A DNA stretch of 64,000 bases from Raja brachyura (taxonomy: Eukaryota), in assembly GCA_963514005.1 (NCBI GenBank), contig OY740810.1, positions 14,570,001-14,634,000 of the forward strand, written 5' to 3'. Numbering within the stretch: the stretch's first letter is position 1; each line of letters starts with the position of its first letter. Positions 1 to 60,000 of the stretch are shown here, piece after piece. The position numbers are program-made.

Positions 1-3000
1 CCATGGACACAATGATGTGTAGGTTCATGGACATGCAGTGGTGCACCAGAAAATCAGGTGGTGACTTTCAGATTCTAGACAACTCCCGCATCATGCAGAT
101 ATTGTGGTTGACTCATGTAAATGTTGCCACCGAGTGCTTGCAAGGTCTGATTTAGCATTGGTTTGAGAGGAAACAGATCCAGGCCATGGATTGCAGTGGT
201 GAAAGCCCATCTCTGATGGGCTCTGATGTACTGTTGATTCCCAATATCATGCCTCATCCCATTCCCAATGTATTAATTTGTGTACTAAAATAATACCTCA
301 GGAATCAATAATTGCACAGAAATAGTCTACAGAGGAAATATTTAATTTATTTTGCAAATTGAATGCCATATCCCCGTCTAGAATTATTCTGGCAAATGAC
401 ATACATATTACGTGCTTGAGTATATAAATATACTATTCCCCAACGTTTCAATCAATGGTTTCTATTCCCAAACTGTCTGACATATTAAGTCAAGCAGATT
501 TACTCAATTACCTCTGCATCTATTCCACAGCCCCTCAGCTGTACAAGGCACCAGAGTGCATGCAAACTGCACCTTCACAAATGACTCTGATCCCCAGGAT
601 GTTAACAGGGTTAGATTGTACCGTGTGTTCAGAGACCTGTCTGAAGGCATCACCACTCTAGGACCATATTCTCTGGATAGTAACAGCCTCTACGTGAACG
701 GTATGTATCACTGAAGTTAGGATTTACTTCTGATCAAATTTATTGGATTCGAGTGAACATTCAGAAAATGTCATAATCTATCAATTTCCCCTATTTAATG
801 TACACATTTCGCCAGATACATAATTATTCTTTTAATCTTTCAGGTTACAATGAACCATCACCTTCAACAAGTGAGTACTGTTTTGAATTTGATATTTCAC
901 TAAAATATCCTTTTGTTGCAGTGGATAACAACAGTGAATATATTTACCAAACGTTCAATAAATATTGTCAGATGTTGTCTCCCTATTAGTGATGTTACAC
1001 AGCAGGTGTATGACAATGGAAAGTGGATGAGATGTGACTATCCTATCATCATCAATGTTTTCATCTCCACTGCTGGCCATACATTCCATTAGGCTCCACC
1101 CAAAATACCAATGTACCAATCTTTGCTTCATTGGAAATGATAATCATAGACCGTTAGTGCCATGATGGATACAGCACCGAAATTGGCTCTTTGGATCGTA
1201 GATTCTGTGGCAATGGCAATCTACCCCTTTATTCTAATCCTATATTAATCACATTTTTTATTCTCCCTTCATCAAAAGTAATTCACATTATTCCCTTCAT
1301 CATGTATTTGTACACTGTGGATGGCATGATTGTAATCATGTATAGCATTTCCACTAACTGGTTAGTATGCAACAAAAGCTTTTCACTTTACCTCGGTACA
1401 CATGACAAAGAACTAAACTCCAACGCAAACTCAAACATCCTCTTCAACTGCAGCAAGGTCCTACCATTGACCTACTTATTTGGGTCATTTTACAGTGGCC
1501 ATAGAGCTTAGACCTATACATTATTCATCTCTGTGTAACACTCTTTCCTTCTTTACACCAAGTGTTAATAATAATTCAACAAAAAGCTTTTTTTATAATT
1601 GATTGTTTAATAATTTTGCACAATTTCTTAACAGCAATATCACCAACACAGACCACAACTCCAAATTTGCAACCAAATCCCCTTGATTTTAACGTGACCT
1701 TCGTTGCAACTAACTTGACCTCAGCAGCAGATTTACAAGATCCCAATTCAGCATTGTTCAACTCGACAGCAAGTGTTATTGTTTTGCAGGTCAGTTGACA
1801 AATTACTGATTGATTTAATCAATTCATTACTCATGGTTCAGACAGTCTAATACTCTAACCATTGCCTTTTTACAGCTGAACCAACTGTTTCGCAGCAGTA
1901 ATGTTAACAAAACCTTCTCCAGCTGCAGAGTTCTCTCATTCAGGTAAGGAAAACTAAGATTCATCCGGGTCAGTATTTGCATCAACACCACGTGCGACCT
2001 CAGAAAGGCACATGTTACTGCAAATGCATCAACATTTCCGAAATGGTAACTCTGATAGAAAAATGGCAAGCTCATATTTAGACATGTTTTTCTCAAAGAT
2101 AATTCCCAAACCAATATTTGTGGATTTCTAAGGAGTTTCACAACGTCCATGGTGGTGCATCCCAAGTCCTTCATGTGCCATGGACACAATGATGTGTAGG
2201 TTCATGGACATGCAGTGGTGCACCAGAAAATCAGGTGGTGACTTTCAGATTCTAGACAACTCCCGCATCATGCAGATATTGTGGTTGATTCATGTAAATG
2301 TTGCCACCGAGTGCTTGCAAGGTCTGATTTAGCATTGGTTTGAGAGGAAACAGATCCAGGCCATGGATTGCAGTGGTGAAAGCCCATCTCTGATGGGCTC
2401 TGATGTACTGTTGATTCCCAATATCATGGCTCATCCCATTCCCAATGTATTAATTTGTGTACTAAAATATTACCTCAGGAATCAATAATTGCACAGAAAT
2501 AGTCTACAGAGGAAATATTTAATTTATTTTGCAAATTGAATGCCATATCCCCGTCTAGAATTATTCTGGCAAATGACATACATGTTACGTGCTTGAGTAT
2601 ATAAATATACTATTCCCCAACGTTTCAATCAATGGTTTCTATTCCCAAACTGTCTGACATATTAAGTCAAGCAGATTTACTCAATTACCTCTGCATCTAT
2701 TCCACAGCCCCTCAGCTGTACAAGGCACCAGAGTGCATGCAAACTGCACCTTCACAAATGACTCTGATACCCAGGATGTTAACAGGGTTAGATTGTACCG
2801 TGTGTTCAGAGACCTGTCTGAAGGCATCACCACTCTAGGACCATATTCTCTGGATAGTAACAGCCTCTACGTGAACGGTATGTATCACTGAAGTTAGGAT
2901 TTACTTCTGATCAAATTTATTGGATTCGAGTGAACATTCAGAAAATGTCATAATCTATCAATTTCCCCTATTTAATGTACACATTTCGCCAGATACATAA

Positions 3001-57000: not shown

Positions 57001-60000
57001 AGTAAACTCTTCCAAGGAAATGAAAAAAAGGATTGTTATTAATTTCAGCAAAAAAAAGAAATCTAAATCTAGTAGTAATCTTGAAGTTTGTGTGATTACA
57101 TTGAACATAGAACATTGTTCAGCATAGGCAGGCTCTTCAGCCCACAATGTCTGTGTCAAACATAATGCCAAGATAAACTAATCTCCTCTGCCCGCACATC
57201 ATCCATATTCCTCTATTTCATGCATTTCTGCGAGTAGTTGATATTTATTTATAGTCTCTCTGTAGCCACTGACAATGTTTTAACATTTCATATCTTAATT
57301 TTAGGTTATCAAGAAGTGAAGCCAAATGCAGAATCTGGACTTGCAGGCAGAGAAAATGACTTGTCATTTGAACTTAATTTCACAATAATAAACAGAAATT
57401 TTACTGAAGCACTTAATGATCCAAATTCCCCTGAATATAAAAGCCTAGTTGCCGATATTGCTACAATGGTAAGGACCAGCTCTCTGCGTGAAATTATTGA
57501 CCACATGATCAGATGTATGAATTAATTTTGAATTGGTTTTATTAATTACTGTCACTCATTTTACATGATGTACTATTGTTGCAAAAAATCTGCATTATGA
57601 ATCTGTTCTGACATTTTCTATAAAATGTAATTTATCTTTAGAAACTTGTGCAATCAATACTAAATTTTGTATTTTGCAGCTCACAGCATTGTACCAAAAC
57701 AGCTTGCTTAAAGACAATTACCGCATCTGTCAAGTTACAGGACTGAAGTAAGAGGATTTCTTCCGCATTTTAAATATTTTTTAAATAAAAGAAAAATATT
57801 ACCTATTATTGACTCAGCTCAATAACAGCATCCAAAACTATTTTGTGAATTAAATATATCAATACAATTTTTTAATTGGGGCTTGAGCTAAATTTAACCA
57901 TAAAATATAACTGTTCTATTTCCATAAATCACTAGAATCTGCTTCAGTTCAAGTAAATGTTGCTTGGCGTTTGATAACCATTGAGCCATAGTCATAGATA
58001 TACAGCTTAGAAACATTCCCCTCAGCCCAACTTGCCCATGCCGACCAAGATCCCCCATCAACCACCTGATTCCAAGTTTAGTGCTAAACAATGGCGATTT
58101 AATGCTACTTTGCTTCAAGATTTGAATGTTGTTAAATTTATTAAAGATCGGATTGCTTTCATCTTCGTAACACTGAAGAAATATCCAATGGTTAGTCTGG
58201 GATGCTTTTAAGGCATATATTCGTGGACAAATTATTTCATACTGCGCGGGATTAAAAAAACAAACTCAAAAAGAAATACGTATATTGGCTGATGAGATTA
58301 AAGAAATTGATTACAAAATATTCAAAAGCTCCTAGTTTAGAGCTCTATAAGAATATAGTTCAACTTCAATCGAGATATGATTTGTTATTAGTATCACCAA
58401 TTGAGAACCGGCTACTTAAAACCAAAAGTCAATTTTATATACATGGCGAAAAATCTGGTAAATTACTCACTAATCAGTTGAAAGCGGTGTCGGCCAAACA
58501 TCAGATTACTAAAGTGAGTAAATGGGATGGTACACTATCTGTAGACCATTATGAAATTAATAAATCCTTTCAGAAATGTTATACCTCCCTATACCAATCA
58601 GAATTTCCTACTGATTCCAATATAATGCATGAGTTTTTAAAGAAACTGAACTTGCAAAATTTACCACATAATGAGTCTCTGGTGTTAGATGAACCGATCA
58701 TGGAGGAAGAAATACAGAAAGCAATCCTTTCAATTAATTCCGGTAAAGCTCCTGGTTTAGATGGGTTTACAGTAGAATTTTTAAAGTATTTTTCAAGTTT
58801 ATTGTCTCCCTGGCTATGCAAGGTTGTTAAAGAAGCCTTTTTAATGAATAGATTACCACAATCTTTTTGTGTCTATTTATTTAATTCTTAAAAAAGATAA
58901 AGACCCTCACATAGACCTATATCACTGTTAAATGTAGATTCCAAAATTCTTTCCAAAATATTAGCTATGAGATTTGAAAATATTTTACCACAAATTATTT
59001 CTGAAGGTCAGACAGGTTTTATTAAAAATCGTTACTCATACTTTAACGTTATGAGATTAATGAATATTGTATATACAGCGTCAAATAAAACCTCAGAATG
59101 TGTCATTTCACTTGATGCCGAGAAGTAAATCTCCTCTACTCTCTCTATTTTGTTGACATCCTTCCTATAATTAGGCGACCAAAATTGTACACCATACTCC
59201 AGAATTGGTCTTACCAATGCCTTGTACAATTTTAAAATTATTTCCATACTCCTATATTCAATGCTCTAATTTATAAAGGCCAGCACACCAAAAGCTTTCT
59301 TTACCACCCTATCTACATGCGATTCCACCTTCAGGGAACTATGCACAGTTATTCCTAGATCCCTCTGTTCCACAGCATTCCTCAATTCCCTACCATTTAC
59401 CATGTACGTTCTATTTTGATTTGTCCTGCCAAGATGTAGCACCTCACACTTATCAGCATTAAACTCCATCTGCAATTTTTCAGCCCACTCTTCCAAATGG
59501 CCCAAATCTCTCTGTAGACTTTGAAAATCTACTTCATTATCCACAGCACCTCCTATCTTAGTATCATCTGCATACTTACTTATCCAATTTTCCACCCCAT
59601 CATCTAGATCATTGATGTACATGACAAACAACAGTGGACTCAACACAGATCCCTGAGGCACCCCACTGGTCACCGGCTTCCAACCTGACAAACAGCCATC
59701 CACCATTCCTCTCTGGCATCTCCCATTCAGCCACTGTTGAATCCATCTTGCTACTCTGCCATTAACACCCAAAGATTGAACCTTCTTAACCAACCTTCCA
59801 TGGGGAACCTTGTCAAAGGCCTTACTGAAATCCATATAGACAACATCCACTGCTTTACCCTCATCAATTTCCCTAGTAACCTCTTCAAAAAATTCAAGAA
59901 GGTTTGTCAAACATGACCTTCCAGGCACAAATCCATGTTGACTGTTCTTGATCAGACCCTGTTTATCCACACGCTTATATATATTATCTCTAAGTAGCCT

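What the first reader, a model, noticed from the sequence alone, without database searches (positions are those of the whole stretch)
531..57747. Hidden giant MUC16/CA125-like SEA-repeat mucin with its own lineage-specific domain expansion, probably in a cartilaginous fish
Seen: 95 short exons, none recovered properly by the ORF track, splice into one 3291-codon frame with 25 SEA modules (2 partial). Known: human MUC16 has 156-aa, five-exon SEA repeats with a two-Cys loop. Here repeats are 134-140 aa, use four exons (no separate Ser/Thr spacer exon) and have an 18-residue Cys loop. Inference: the near-identical introns show the arrays are young, so this expansion is independent of and convergent with the mammalian one. 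It would make a long rod of N-glycosylated SEA domains rather than a PTS mucin. Whether this locus is already annotated cannot be seen from here.
Basis: partly seen in the sequence, partly recalled or inferred. Interest (0 to 1): 0.8.

Follow-up and report, generated by a model that had tools for sequence, protein, structure and literature searches.

The report
Skate MUC16-family mucin SEA-repeat region
The window holds most of the SEA-repeat region of a skate relative of the mucin MUC16 (CA125); the same gene is already machine-annotated as "mucin-16-like" in other skates, rays and sharks, so it is real but fairly ordinary.

Summary
I rebuilt 95 + strand exons (531..57747). All have AG/GT borders, none has a stop, and they sum to 9873 nt = 3291 codons. 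They form 4-exon cassettes of 134-140 aa.

Searched exon by exon, SEA (PF01390) was the only Pfam family hit, and the three large exons cover its profile in order. The only significant solved-structure matches are Mucin-16 SEA domains.

The exons are collinear with RefSeq "mucin-16-like" proteins of three skates: Amblyraja radiata XP_032902718.1, Leucoraja erinacea and Rhinoraja longicauda. Identity is 84-86%, so the source is probably a fourth skate.

The orthologues add what the window lacks: an N-terminal Pro/Thr/Ser domain, the last half-SEA, a membrane span and a tail conserved up to mammals.

Two genomic arrays are young or homogenised. Thirteen 2.18-kb units are 94.6-100% identical, introns included. 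Three 3.37-kb units are 99.9% identical and each carries a LINE fragment. Array units cluster by species.

"Hidden" and "not a PTS mucin" do not. The joined-model search was left out.

The parts
531..1943 (+). Array 1, unit 1: exons A 531..700; B 844..870; C 1635..1789; D 1876..1943 (420 nt)
   Evidence: Read by eye. Pfam SEA per exon; Mucin-16 in PDB.
2708..4121 (+). Array 1, unit 2: A 2708..2877; B 3021..3047; C 3813..3967; D 4054..4121
4886..6300 (+). Array 1, unit 3: A 4886..5055; B 5199..5225; C 5992..6146; D 6233..6300
7065..8477 (+). Array 1, unit 4: A 7065..7234; B 7378..7404; C 8169..8323; D 8410..8477
9242..10655 (+). Array 1, unit 5: A 9242..9411; B 9555..9581; C 10347..10501; D 10588..10655
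11420..12834 (+). Array 1, unit 6: A 11420..11589; B 11733..11759; C 12526..12680; D 12767..12834
13599..15012 (+). Array 1, unit 7: A 13599..13768; B 13911..13937; C 14704..14858; D 14945..15012. This genomic unit is 2019 bp, against 2174-2181 bp for the others.
15618..17033 (+). Array 1, unit 8: A 15618..15787; B 15931..15957; C 16725..16879; D 16966..17033. First unit of the second subfamily.
17798..19213 (+). Array 1, unit 9: A 17798..17967; B 18111..18137; C 18905..19059; D 19146..19213
19978..21387 (+). Array 1, unit 10: A 19978..20147; B 20291..20317; C 21079..21233; D 21320..21387
   Evidence: 100.0% identical to unit 11 in the table
22152..23561 (+). Array 1, unit 11: A 22152..22321; B 22465..22491; C 23253..23407; D 23494..23561
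24326..25735 (+). Array 1, unit 12: A 24326..24495; B 24639..24665; C 25427..25581; D 25668..25735
26500..27916 (+). Array 1, unit 13: A 26500..26669; B 26813..26839; C 27608..27762; D 27849..27916
28681..29792 (+). Cassette 14: last, diverged A of array 1 (28681..28850); B 29002..29025 (24 nt); then C 29475..29635 and D 29725..29792, which open a distinct SEA type starting with the EPPIVP motif
   Evidence: In the Amblyraja and Leucoraja proteins the same two exon matches lie next to each other with one residue between.
31585..33506 (+). Cassette 15: A 31585..31754 (second half of the EPPIVP-type SEA); B 32472..32498; C 33198..33352; D 33439..33506
34363..35377 (+). Cassette 16: A 34363..34532; B 34672..34698; C 35091..35224; D 35310..35377
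36038..37468 (+). Cassette 17: A 36038..36207; B 36349..36381 (33 nt); C 37177..37313; D 37401..37468. C and D open array 2.
36555..36690 (+). Truncated extra C-type exon. It starts like exon C behind a good acceptor and then loses the similarity. No donor leaves phase 0, so it is not part of the 95-exon frame.
   Evidence: The minus-strand ORF 36568..36873 looks by eye like a LINE 3' tail; this is not confirmed (no hit at E<=1e-5).
39404..40821 (+). Array 2 core: A 39404..39573; B 39690..39716; C 40530..40666; D 40754..40821 (402 nt)
42773..44190 (+). Array 2 core: A 42773..42942; B 43059..43085; C 43899..44035; D 44123..44190
46142..47559 (+). Array 2 core: A 46142..46311; B 46428..46454; C 47268..47404; D 47492..47559
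49511..50928 (+). Array 2: A 49511..49680; B 49797..49823; C 50637..50773; D 50861..50928
52868..54074 (+). Array 2, diverged end: A 52868..53037; B 53158..53184; C 53783..53919; D 54007..54074
55015..56012 (+). Cassette 23: A 55015..55184; B 55331..55357; C 55766..55860 (95 nt); D 55945..56012
56592..57747 (+). Cassette 24: A 56592..56752 (161 nt); fused B+C 57305..57468; D 57680..57747. The last two exons are the first half of the gene's final SEA domain.
   Evidence: Exon D is 22 of 22 identical to Amblyraja residues 3441-3462.
38355..39019 (-). LINE 3' fragment in the D-to-A intron of the first array-2 unit. Copies sit at the same place in the other units: 41654..42384, 45023..45753, 48392..49122, 51815..52480.
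   Evidence: tblastn with the window's own LINE ORFs
1..530 (+). Intron of a further array-1 unit that begins upstream of the window
   Evidence: 526 of 530 aligned positions identical to 2178..2707

Best explanation
The window is about 58 kb of the SEA-repeat region of a MUC16-family gene of a skate. It is the orthologue of the RefSeq "mucin-16-like" genes of Amblyraja radiata, Leucoraja erinacea and Rhinoraja longicauda.

Shown here:
- 95 exons make one open frame of 3291 codons.
- Each SEA domain is split over three exons (C, D, A), and a fourth mini-exon (B) starts the Ser/Thr/Pro-rich linker.
- Every cassette starts and ends in intron phase 2, so gaining or losing whole cassettes keeps the frame.
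- Two stretches are tandem genomic duplications that include the introns. One set also carries a LINE fragment. Growth was therefore by unequal crossing-over of DNA segments, and it was either recent or kept uniform by ongoing exchange.

Inferred from the orthologues and from what is established for MUC16:
- The full protein is a type I membrane mucin. It has a Ser/Thr/Pro-rich N-terminal domain, then 25 or more SEA domains bearing about 4-5 N-glycan sites each and joined by short O-glycosylatable linkers. A final SEA follows, with a Gly-Ser at the place of the self-cleavage site, then a membrane span and a short tail.
- The tail has a basic patch and two conserved Tyr motifs.
- It would stand on wet epithelia as a long glycosylated barrier. 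The number of cassettes would set its reach.
For: Frame and splice sites:
- 95 of 95 exons have AG/GT borders and no stop; total 9873 nt.

SEA identity:
- I sent 10 of the 95 exon peptides to Pfam. Nine hit SEA PF01390 and nothing else.
- C exons match profile positions 2-36, D exons 37-58 and A exons 61-106, that is collinear coverage.
- For unit 1 the three scores are 17.4, 19.3 and 14.3 bits against a cutoff of 26.4.

MUC16 type:
- Exon A of unit 1 against PDB gave 5 rows. Three are Mucin-16 (E 1.1e-7 to 2.4e-7); the other two are at E 0.5.
- 6 of 6 word-index hits are mucin-16-like proteins of elasmobranchs.
- 139 representative proteins match at E<=1e-3. I looked up names for 20 of them: 18 are called mucin-16 or mucin-16-like, 1 is a hypothetical shark protein and 1 is unnamed.

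Orthology to skates:
- Identity is 2716/3220 to Amblyraja, 2757/3220 to Leucoraja and 2661/3149 to Rhinoraja. It is 0.71 to Pristis and 0.60-0.63 to Narcine and Rhincodon.
- The exons are collinear and abut in the Amblyraja protein.

Gene-level homology with tetrapod MUC16:
- The tail behind the membrane span is shared.
- A tree of the C-terminal 220 aa of 30 proteins puts elasmobranch type A (18), elasmobranch type B (5) and lungfish plus tetrapods (7) each on one side of a starred branch.

Arrays:
- DNA identities are; LINE copies are.
Against: - No transcript evidence was available. The supporting skate proteins are themselves pipeline predictions.
- Only 1 of the 10 exon peptides reaches Pfam's cutoff on its own (30.4 bits), and 1 of 10 (A exon 56593..56751) has no Pfam hit.
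- Exon C against PDB is not significant (E 0.28 and 1).
- The N-terminal domain, the last half-SEA, the membrane span and the tail are not in the window, so they are assumed from the orthologues.
- The exon-C tree does not resolve the window's array units as a clade of their own. Their common ancestor also holds 38 units of the other three skates.
- Function is inferred from homology only.
Confidence: 0.9

Rival explanations
1. The uniform arrays are not young expansions. An array already present in the common ancestor of skates is kept uniform within each species by unequal crossing-over and gene conversion (concerted evolution). This concerns the history only, not the identity of the gene.
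For: All four skates have an array of the same unit type at the same place, between the first SEA and a second EPPIVP-type SEA. The four species' units form one starred clade of 50 rows. Exon and intron identities are alike within array 1 (97.7% and 96.4%), as exchange of whole units would give.
Against: Array 2 is a window-only clade. Its sisters are one or two modules in each of the other three skates (5 rows in all), so at least that array is a new gain. Leucoraja and Rhinoraja have each multiplied a different module (by eye). Protein models of repeats may be collapsed or padded by assembly and prediction.
Confidence: 0.5
2. Array 1 and the downstream modules belong to two transcripts or two neighbouring genes, and the single 3291-codon frame is a product of phase-compatible cassettes.
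For: In rays and sharks outside the skates the EPPIVP-type SEA comes straight after the N-terminal Ser/Thr-rich region (Pristis, Narcine, Rhincodon). In the window it sits in the middle, after array 1. All cassettes share the same phases, so phase fit alone proves little.
Against: Only 449 bp lie between exon B 29002..29025 and exon C 29475..29635. That leaves no room for a membrane-span exon, tail, terminator, promoter and signal peptide, and no match to the orthologues' C-termini was found there. The Amblyraja and Leucoraja models read through the same junction, with the residue that the window's split codon gives.
Confidence: 0.05
3. The arrays are partly an assembly artefact, or the gene is a dead copy.
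For: Units 10 and 11 are 100.0% identical over 2174 bp, and three array-2 units are 99.9% identical over 3369 bp. Such repeats are hard to assemble. One truncated exon lies at 36555.
Against: There are no stops or lost splice sites in 95 exons. Graded divergence among units (94.6-99.6%, two subfamilies, one unit about 160 bp shorter) is not what a copy-and-paste error gives. Similar arrays occur in three other species' predicted proteins.
Confidence: 0.07
4. It is a SEA-repeat protein that resembles MUC16 only by convergence and is not homologous to it as a gene.
For: Repeats of elasmobranchs and of tetrapods never interleave in the segment trees. Repeat length and exon number differ from human.
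Against: The orthologues share the non-repeated end of the gene with bird, reptile, mammal and lungfish MUC16: last SEA, membrane span, basic patch and two Tyr motifs. PDB and database matches are to MUC16 alone among SEA proteins.
Confidence: 0.03

Closest known systems
RefSeq mucin-16-like of skates: Amblyraja radiata XP_032902718.1 (3584 aa), Leucoraja erinacea (4482 aa, P0146), Rhinoraja longicauda (2092 aa, P0147)
   Same: Same order of modules, and the exons abut in the protein. Overall identity is 84-86%. All have an array of the same unit type followed by a second EPPIVP-type SEA, and the same last modules.
   Different: None is identical, so the window is another species or copy. Unit sequences are species-specific (82-91% between species, 98.9-100% within). 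The window alone has the 3.37-kb array 2. Leucoraja and Rhinoraja multiplied other modules.
Tetrapod MUC16 (CA125)
   Same: Many tandem SEA domains with a two-Cys loop, and no Gly-Ser-Val-type cleavage motif in the repeats (0 of 95 exon peptides). Ser/Thr/Pro linkers. The membrane span and tail motifs of the orthologues are shared with bird, reptile and mammal proteins. Mucin-16 gives the only significant PDB matches.
   Different: - The repeat is 134-140 aa in 4 exons, against 156 aa in 5 exons of about 1900 bp in human.
- The Cys loop has 18 residues against 19 (Cys59 and Cys79). The human figures are from passages of PMC3431878.
- Identity to tetrapod proteins is about 26-34%.
- The N-terminal Ser/Thr-rich domain of the skate orthologues is a few hundred residues. 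For human, PMC3431878's table gives 12,068.
- Elasmobranchs have at least two paralogues.
Elasmobranch mucin-16-like, second paralogue (type B; e.g. Leucoraja XP_055514611.1, Pristis XP_051893943.1)
   Same: SEA repeats, a membrane span and a related tail. It lies on the same contig as the type-A gene in Leucoraja and in Pristis, judged by equal contig lengths.
   Different: Only 37-45% identical to the window's exons, against 71-86% for type A. It forms a separate starred clade in the C-terminal tree.
Other SEA-domain mucins (MUC1, MUC3/12/13/17)
   Same: They have a SEA domain next to a membrane span.
   Different: They have one SEA (or few) with a self-cleavage motif (recalled). None appeared in the PDB search with exon A at E<=10. 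[quoted passage not shown]

Membership tests
SEA domain (Pfam PF01390) | Match to the family profile above the curated cutoff | tested here: inconclusive
   Tested exon by exon only; I sent 10 of the 95 exon peptides. Nine hit SEA as the only family, covering profile positions 2-36, 37-58 and 61-106 in order. Only 1 of 10 exceeds the 26.4-bit cutoff alone (30.4). The three parts of unit 1 score 17.4, 19.3 and 14.3 bits. The joined domain was not searched. The Amblyraja orthologue gives 23 SEA stretches at E = 0.
MUC16 family | Many tandem SEA domains in one polypeptide | tested here: met
   23 whole and 2 half C-D-A sets in one open frame.
MUC16 family | SEA of the MUC16 type: closest to MUC16 SEAs, with a two-Cys loop and no self-cleavage motif in the repeats | tested here: met
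   PDB: Mucin-16 only, E 1.1e-7. One Cys in each of 24 D exons and 24 A exons; Gly-Ser-Val/Ile motif in 0 of 95 exon peptides. The loop has 18 residues, against 19 in human.
MUC16 family | Ser/Thr/Pro-rich mucin domain | not testable with these tools
   The N-terminus lies outside the window. It is present in the orthologues. Within the window only the linkers are Ser/Thr/Pro-rich: B exons 0.54, start of C exons 0.51.
MUC16 family | C-terminal last SEA, membrane span and conserved cytoplasmic tail | not testable with these tools
   There is no match after 57748; 58-63.5 kb is LINE sequence. Of 34 named relatives examined, 30 have a membrane-span-like stretch and related tails.
MUC16 family | Repeat cassette of 156 aa in five exons (human) | tested here: not met
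   134-140 aa in four exons; human values are from passages of PMC3431878. This feature describes the human gene rather than defining the family. By my recollection of the human exon sizes (42, 23, 58, 12 and 21 aa; not checked here), exons D, A and B correspond to human exons 2, 3 and 4, and exon C to human exons 5 plus 1.
MUC16 family | Orthology by gene neighbourhood | not testable with these tools
   The window holds no other gene. No collection of eukaryotic genome DNA was on hand.
MUC16 family | Gene-level relatedness to tetrapod MUC16 outside the repeats | tested here: met
   Tested through the orthologues, not the window itself. The C-terminal 220-aa tree of 30 proteins gives three starred groups, with types A and B joined (96/92) opposite lungfish plus tetrapods. 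The root is not known.

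The most novel reading that the evidence does not exclude
MUC16-family genes date back to the common ancestor of jawed vertebrates. They duplicated in elasmobranchs, and in skates they evolve by fast, species-specific amplification of different four-exon SEA cassettes. If so, cassette number (the length of the glycocalyx rod) would be the trait under selection and would probably vary within populations. 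Skates would then be a natural series for asking what the number of SEA repeats in CA125-type mucins is for.
Probability: 0.3. Interest if true: 0.5.

Novelty: new member of a known kind. Interest (0 to 1): 0.3.

Why it matters
The gene itself is no surprise. NCBI's pipeline already names its orthologues in skates, rays and sharks.

Three points have modest value.

First, MUC16-type genes exist in cartilaginous fishes and lungfish. A 2006 inventory found MUC16 in chicken but not in pufferfish (passages of PMC1552070). My seven literature searches listed no paper on MUC16 in sharks or skates.

Second, the window shows in DNA how such repeat regions grow: phase-symmetric four-exon cassettes are copied with their introns and even with a resident LINE fragment.

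Third, four related skates have each made different modules uniform or numerous. This is a clean case of rapid repeat turnover in a cell-surface mucin.

A revised human model counts 19 repeats (PMC10829539). The window alone holds 25 modules.

Tried and rejected
- Tandem Repeats Finder found nothing because its longest period is 500 bp. I measured the 2.18-kb and 3.37-kb periods from exon positions and unit alignments instead.
- Rfam (gathering scores) and ARAGORN found nothing in the window.
- I looked in the window for the orthologues' last exons and their N-terminal region. There was nothing after 57748, and nothing for the low-complexity N-terminus.
- Exon C against PDB gave only non-significant Mucin-16 rows.
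- The exon-C segment tree (317 rows) has too little signal. The split between elasmobranchs and lungfish plus tetrapods has 1 misplaced row but support of only 27. The window's array-1 units are not a clade of their own.
- I considered that the window is a paralogue rather than the orthologue of the large skate gene. The second paralogue type is only 37-45% identical, so I rejected this for the known paralogue. An unannotated third copy cannot be excluded.
- I considered that type B rather than type A is the true MUC16 orthologue. The C-terminal tree joins A with B, so both are best read as co-orthologues. The root is not known.
A shorter orthologue went through and added no new skate.
- Papers: Lang et al. 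2016 (10.1093/molbev/msw066) has no occurrence of MUC16 (find mode). The listings held only incidental matches. I saw 15 of 849, 15 of 128 and 10 of 18 rows.
- I did not fold a structure. A whole SEA domain of the window would need joined exons.

Full report
**Observation.** The window has no N and about 38% G+C. I take it for fish, not human. Reading 400..2720 gave four + strand exons with canonical borders: A 531..700, B 844..870, C 1635..1789 and D 1876..1943. Together they are 420 nt, with intron phases 2-1-1-0-2.

I translated each exon on its own and ran tblastn against the window. I then scanned for AG..GT exons in the required phase where that failed. The final table has 95 exons from 531 to 57747:
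- 95 of 95 have AG and GT borders.
- No stop occurs in 3220 whole codons or in any split codon. Each split codon was examined singly.
- The total is 9873 nt = 3291 codons.

The exons form 24 cassettes. A SEA domain runs C-D-A, so there are 23 whole domains and two halves (the first A; the last BC+D).

I left out the step of joining the exons into one protein for a search or a fold.

**What the exons encode.** I sent 10 of the 95 exon peptides to Pfam. Nine matched SEA (PF01390) and no other family. C exons matched profile positions 2-36, D exons 37-58 and A exons 61-106, which is the order in which they are spliced. One peptide (56593..56751) matched nothing, and only one (57307..57468, 30.4 bits) passed the 26.4-bit cutoff alone.

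Exon A of unit 1 against all PDB chains gave five rows. Three are Mucin-16 (E 1.1e-7 to 2.4e-7) and two are chance-level rows at E 0.5. Exon C gave only Mucin-16, but without significance (E 0.28 and 1).

Each D exon and each A exon holds one Cys (24 of 24 each). In the cassettes I checked by eye on the listing, 18 residues lie between the two Cys. Human MUC16 has Cys59 and Cys79 (PMC3431878, passages). No exon peptide has a Gly-Ser-Val/Ile self-cleavage motif (0 of 95). There are 113 N-x-S/T sites within exons in 3220 residues.

**Relatives.**
- The word-index search with exon A, restricted to proteins of 99-2000 aa, returned 6 proteins out of 9 candidates. All are "mucin-16-like" of rays and sharks.
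- The exhaustive search of 1.84 billion representatives found 139 proteins at E<=1e-3. I looked up names for 20 of them: 18 are mucin-16 or mucin-16-like, 1 is a hypothetical shark protein and 1 is unnamed and was left unused.
- The best is Amblyraja radiata XP_032902718.1 (3584 aa, 22 matched stretches).
- A search with a region of that protein found Leucoraja erinacea (4482 aa) and Rhinoraja longicauda (2092 aa). It also found sharks, birds, reptiles and mammals, all named mucin-16 or the like. Eight unnamed rows were left unused.

Per exon, the window is identical to Amblyraja at 2716 of 3220 residues, to Leucoraja at 2757 of 3220 and to Rhinoraja at 2661 of 3149 (86 of 95 exons had a hit). 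The fractions are 0.71 for the Pristis orthologue and 0.60-0.63 for Narcine and Rhincodon.

Where modules correspond one to one, consecutive exon matches abut in the Amblyraja protein, with exactly one residue left for a split codon. This is independent support for the splice junctions, including the unusual one between 29025 and 29475.

The source is therefore most likely a skate other than these three. No protein of its own was seen among proteins of 99-6272 aa. Longer models, and the source genome itself, stayed unchecked.

**Whole-gene picture, from the orthologues.** The order is:
1. A Ser/Thr/Pro-rich N-terminal region.
2. A first SEA that begins with EPPIVP.
3. In skates only, an array of near-identical units followed by a second EPPIVP-type SEA (the window's 29475..31754).
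4. Diverged SEAs.
5. A last SEA with Gly-Ser at the place of the self-cleavage site.
6. A membrane span and a short tail.

The window lacks the parts before the array. It also lacks everything after the first half of the last SEA (no tblastn match after 57748). Positions 1..530 are 99.2% identical to 2178..2707, so the array goes on upstream.

**Relation to tetrapod MUC16.** The tails behind the membrane span share a basic patch and two Tyr-containing motifs from skates to mammals. Of 34 named proteins examined, 30 had a membrane-span-like stretch; the 4 without were dropped. An IQ-TREE tree of the last 220 residues of these 30 puts three groups each on one side of a starred branch: elasmobranch type A (18 rows, including the window's orthologues), elasmobranch type B (5 rows) and lungfish plus tetrapods (7 rows). 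Types A and B are joined at 96/92.

The root is unknown. Read with the species tree, the result means a duplication within cartilaginous fishes, with both types co-orthologous to MUC16. Type B is only 37-45% identical to the window's exons. In Leucoraja and Pristis both types lie on one contig, judged by equal contig lengths.

**The arrays.**

*Array 1.*
- It has 13 regular units of 2174-2181 bp, plus one of 2019 bp.
- Units are 94.6-100% identical over their full length. They fall into two subfamilies: units 1-7 and units 8-13.
- Mean identity is 97.7% in exon columns and 96.4% in intron columns.

*Array 2.*
- In the register that starts with exon C, it has five units.
- The three core units are 99.9% identical over 3369 bp. 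The flanking units are 94.9% and about 88% identical to them.
- Each unit has the same LINE 3' fragment on the minus strand in its D-to-A intron. The element was therefore there before the unit multiplied, and the copying was of genomic DNA.

*Frame.* Every cassette begins and ends in phase 2, so unequal exchange between units keeps the frame.

**Species specificity.**
- *Exon A tree.* The segment tree has 392 rows: 24 from the window and 368 from 22 named proteins. Stretches covering fewer than 45 of 56 model positions were dropped and not counted. It was built with FastTree.
- *Array-1 units.* Those of the four skates form one starred clade of 50 rows.
- *Species-only clades.* Within that clade the window's 13 regular units (support 85), Amblyraja's 12, Leucoraja's 17 and Rhinoraja's 5 are each species-only clades.
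- *Identity.* It is 98.9-100% within a species and 82-91% between species.
- *Array 2.* The five A exons of array 2 are a window-only clade. Its sisters are one or two modules in each of the other skates.
- *Other skates.* By eye, Leucoraja and Rhinoraja have multiplied other modules.
- *Against this.* The exon-C tree (317 rows) does not separate the species' array units. That exon is too conserved among skates.
- *Split from tetrapods.* One branch (support 90) separates 156 of 157 lungfish and tetrapod segments from all 235 elasmobranch segments.

- Supported: MUC16-like; cartilaginous fish; lineage-specific expansion; no interleaving with mammalian repeats; 4 exons and 134-140 aa against 5 exons and 156 aa.
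- "Hidden" is not supported, because the orthologues are annotated.
- "A rod of N-glycosylated SEA domains rather than a PTS mucin" is not supported. The orthologues have an N-terminal Ser/Thr/Pro domain, and the linkers are 51-54% Ser+Thr+Pro.
- "Convergent" is too strong. The cassette and the gene are homologous to MUC16, so the amplification is parallel. Homogenisation of an older array is as good an account of array 1 as a fresh burst.
- By my recollection of the human exon sizes (42, 23, 58, 12 and 21 aa; not checked here), exons D, A and B match human exons 2, 3 and 4, and exon C equals human exons 5 plus 1. If so, the difference would be one intron.

**How it most likely works (inferred, not shown).** It is a type I membrane mucin of wet epithelia. 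SEA domains, each with about 4-5 N-glycan sites, are strung on short O-glycosylated linkers and hold a mucin domain away from the cell. The last SEA may self-cleave and allow shedding. The tail may link to the cortex and to kinases, as proposed for MUC16.

**Papers seen.**
- PMC3431878, PMC1552070 and PMC10829539: passages by find mode. The last proposes 19, not 63, human repeats.
- 10.1093/molbev/msw066: find mode, no occurrence of MUC16.
- Seven searches listed no paper on MUC16 in sharks or skates. Only the top rows of each listing were seen.

**Verdict.** It is a new member of an already annotated family. Interest is modest and lies in the repeat dynamics.

Noticed in passing
59266..61746, minus strand: A non-LTR retrotransposon. 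The ORF 59266..60174 matches RVT_1 (E 2.5e-36) and the ORF 60889..61746 matches Exo_endo_phos (E 4e-13). It fills much of the intron after the last exon seen.
   Followed up: partly
58011..59128, plus strand: ORFs that look by eye like part of another reverse-transcriptase element, cut off by the minus-strand LINE. Pfam found no family for 58256..58891.
   Followed up: partly
30681..31262, plus strand: A 193-aa ORF that is a LINE 3' tail (it finds the other LINE copies; no Pfam hit). It lies in the intron between 29792 and 31585, where the GC skew turns positive.
   Followed up: partly
38355..39019, 41654..42384, 45023..45753, 48392..49122, 51815..52480, minus strand: The same LINE 3' fragment sits in every array-2 unit. 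The three core copies are more decayed (45% identity to the query tail) than the two outer ones (70-73%).
   Followed up: yes
36555..36690, plus strand: A truncated C-type exon behind a good acceptor, with no usable donor. It is probably broken by an inserted element on the minus strand (ORF 36568..36873 looks like a LINE tail by eye). Compared with Amblyraja, modules seem to be missing here.
   Followed up: partly
19978..24325: Array-1 units 10 and 11 are 100.0% identical in the identity table (2174 bp each). This is either a very recent duplication or an assembly effect.
   Followed up: no
13599..15617: Array-1 unit 7 is 2019 bp, about 160 bp shorter than its neighbours. All four of its exons are intact, so the loss lies in an intron.
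   Followed up: no
904..1092, plus strand (intron between exons B and C), and the same place in other units: The translated intron shares a short stretch with the first residues of the Rhinoraja RefSeq model (P0147). That predicted protein therefore seems to start inside an intron of a repeat unit, which would be an annotation artefact. It also shows that intron sequence is conserved between the two skates.
   Followed up: no
P0146 (Leucoraja), about two thirds through its array: One unit of the Leucoraja model reads a short out-of-pattern stretch in place of the usual end of the SEA and the linker. This is probably a mis-spliced or frame-shifted exon in the prediction.
   Followed up: no
whole window, plus strand: GC skew is negative (about -0.15) along nearly the whole gene, that is more C than G on the coding strand. 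It fits the Thr/Pro-rich exons and pyrimidine-rich introns, but I did not test this.
   Followed up: no
Leucoraja and Pristis records: Several mucin-16-like genes of two types lie on the same contig in each species (equal contig lengths), which suggests a tandem cluster. Sharks show a further split within type A.
   Followed up: partly
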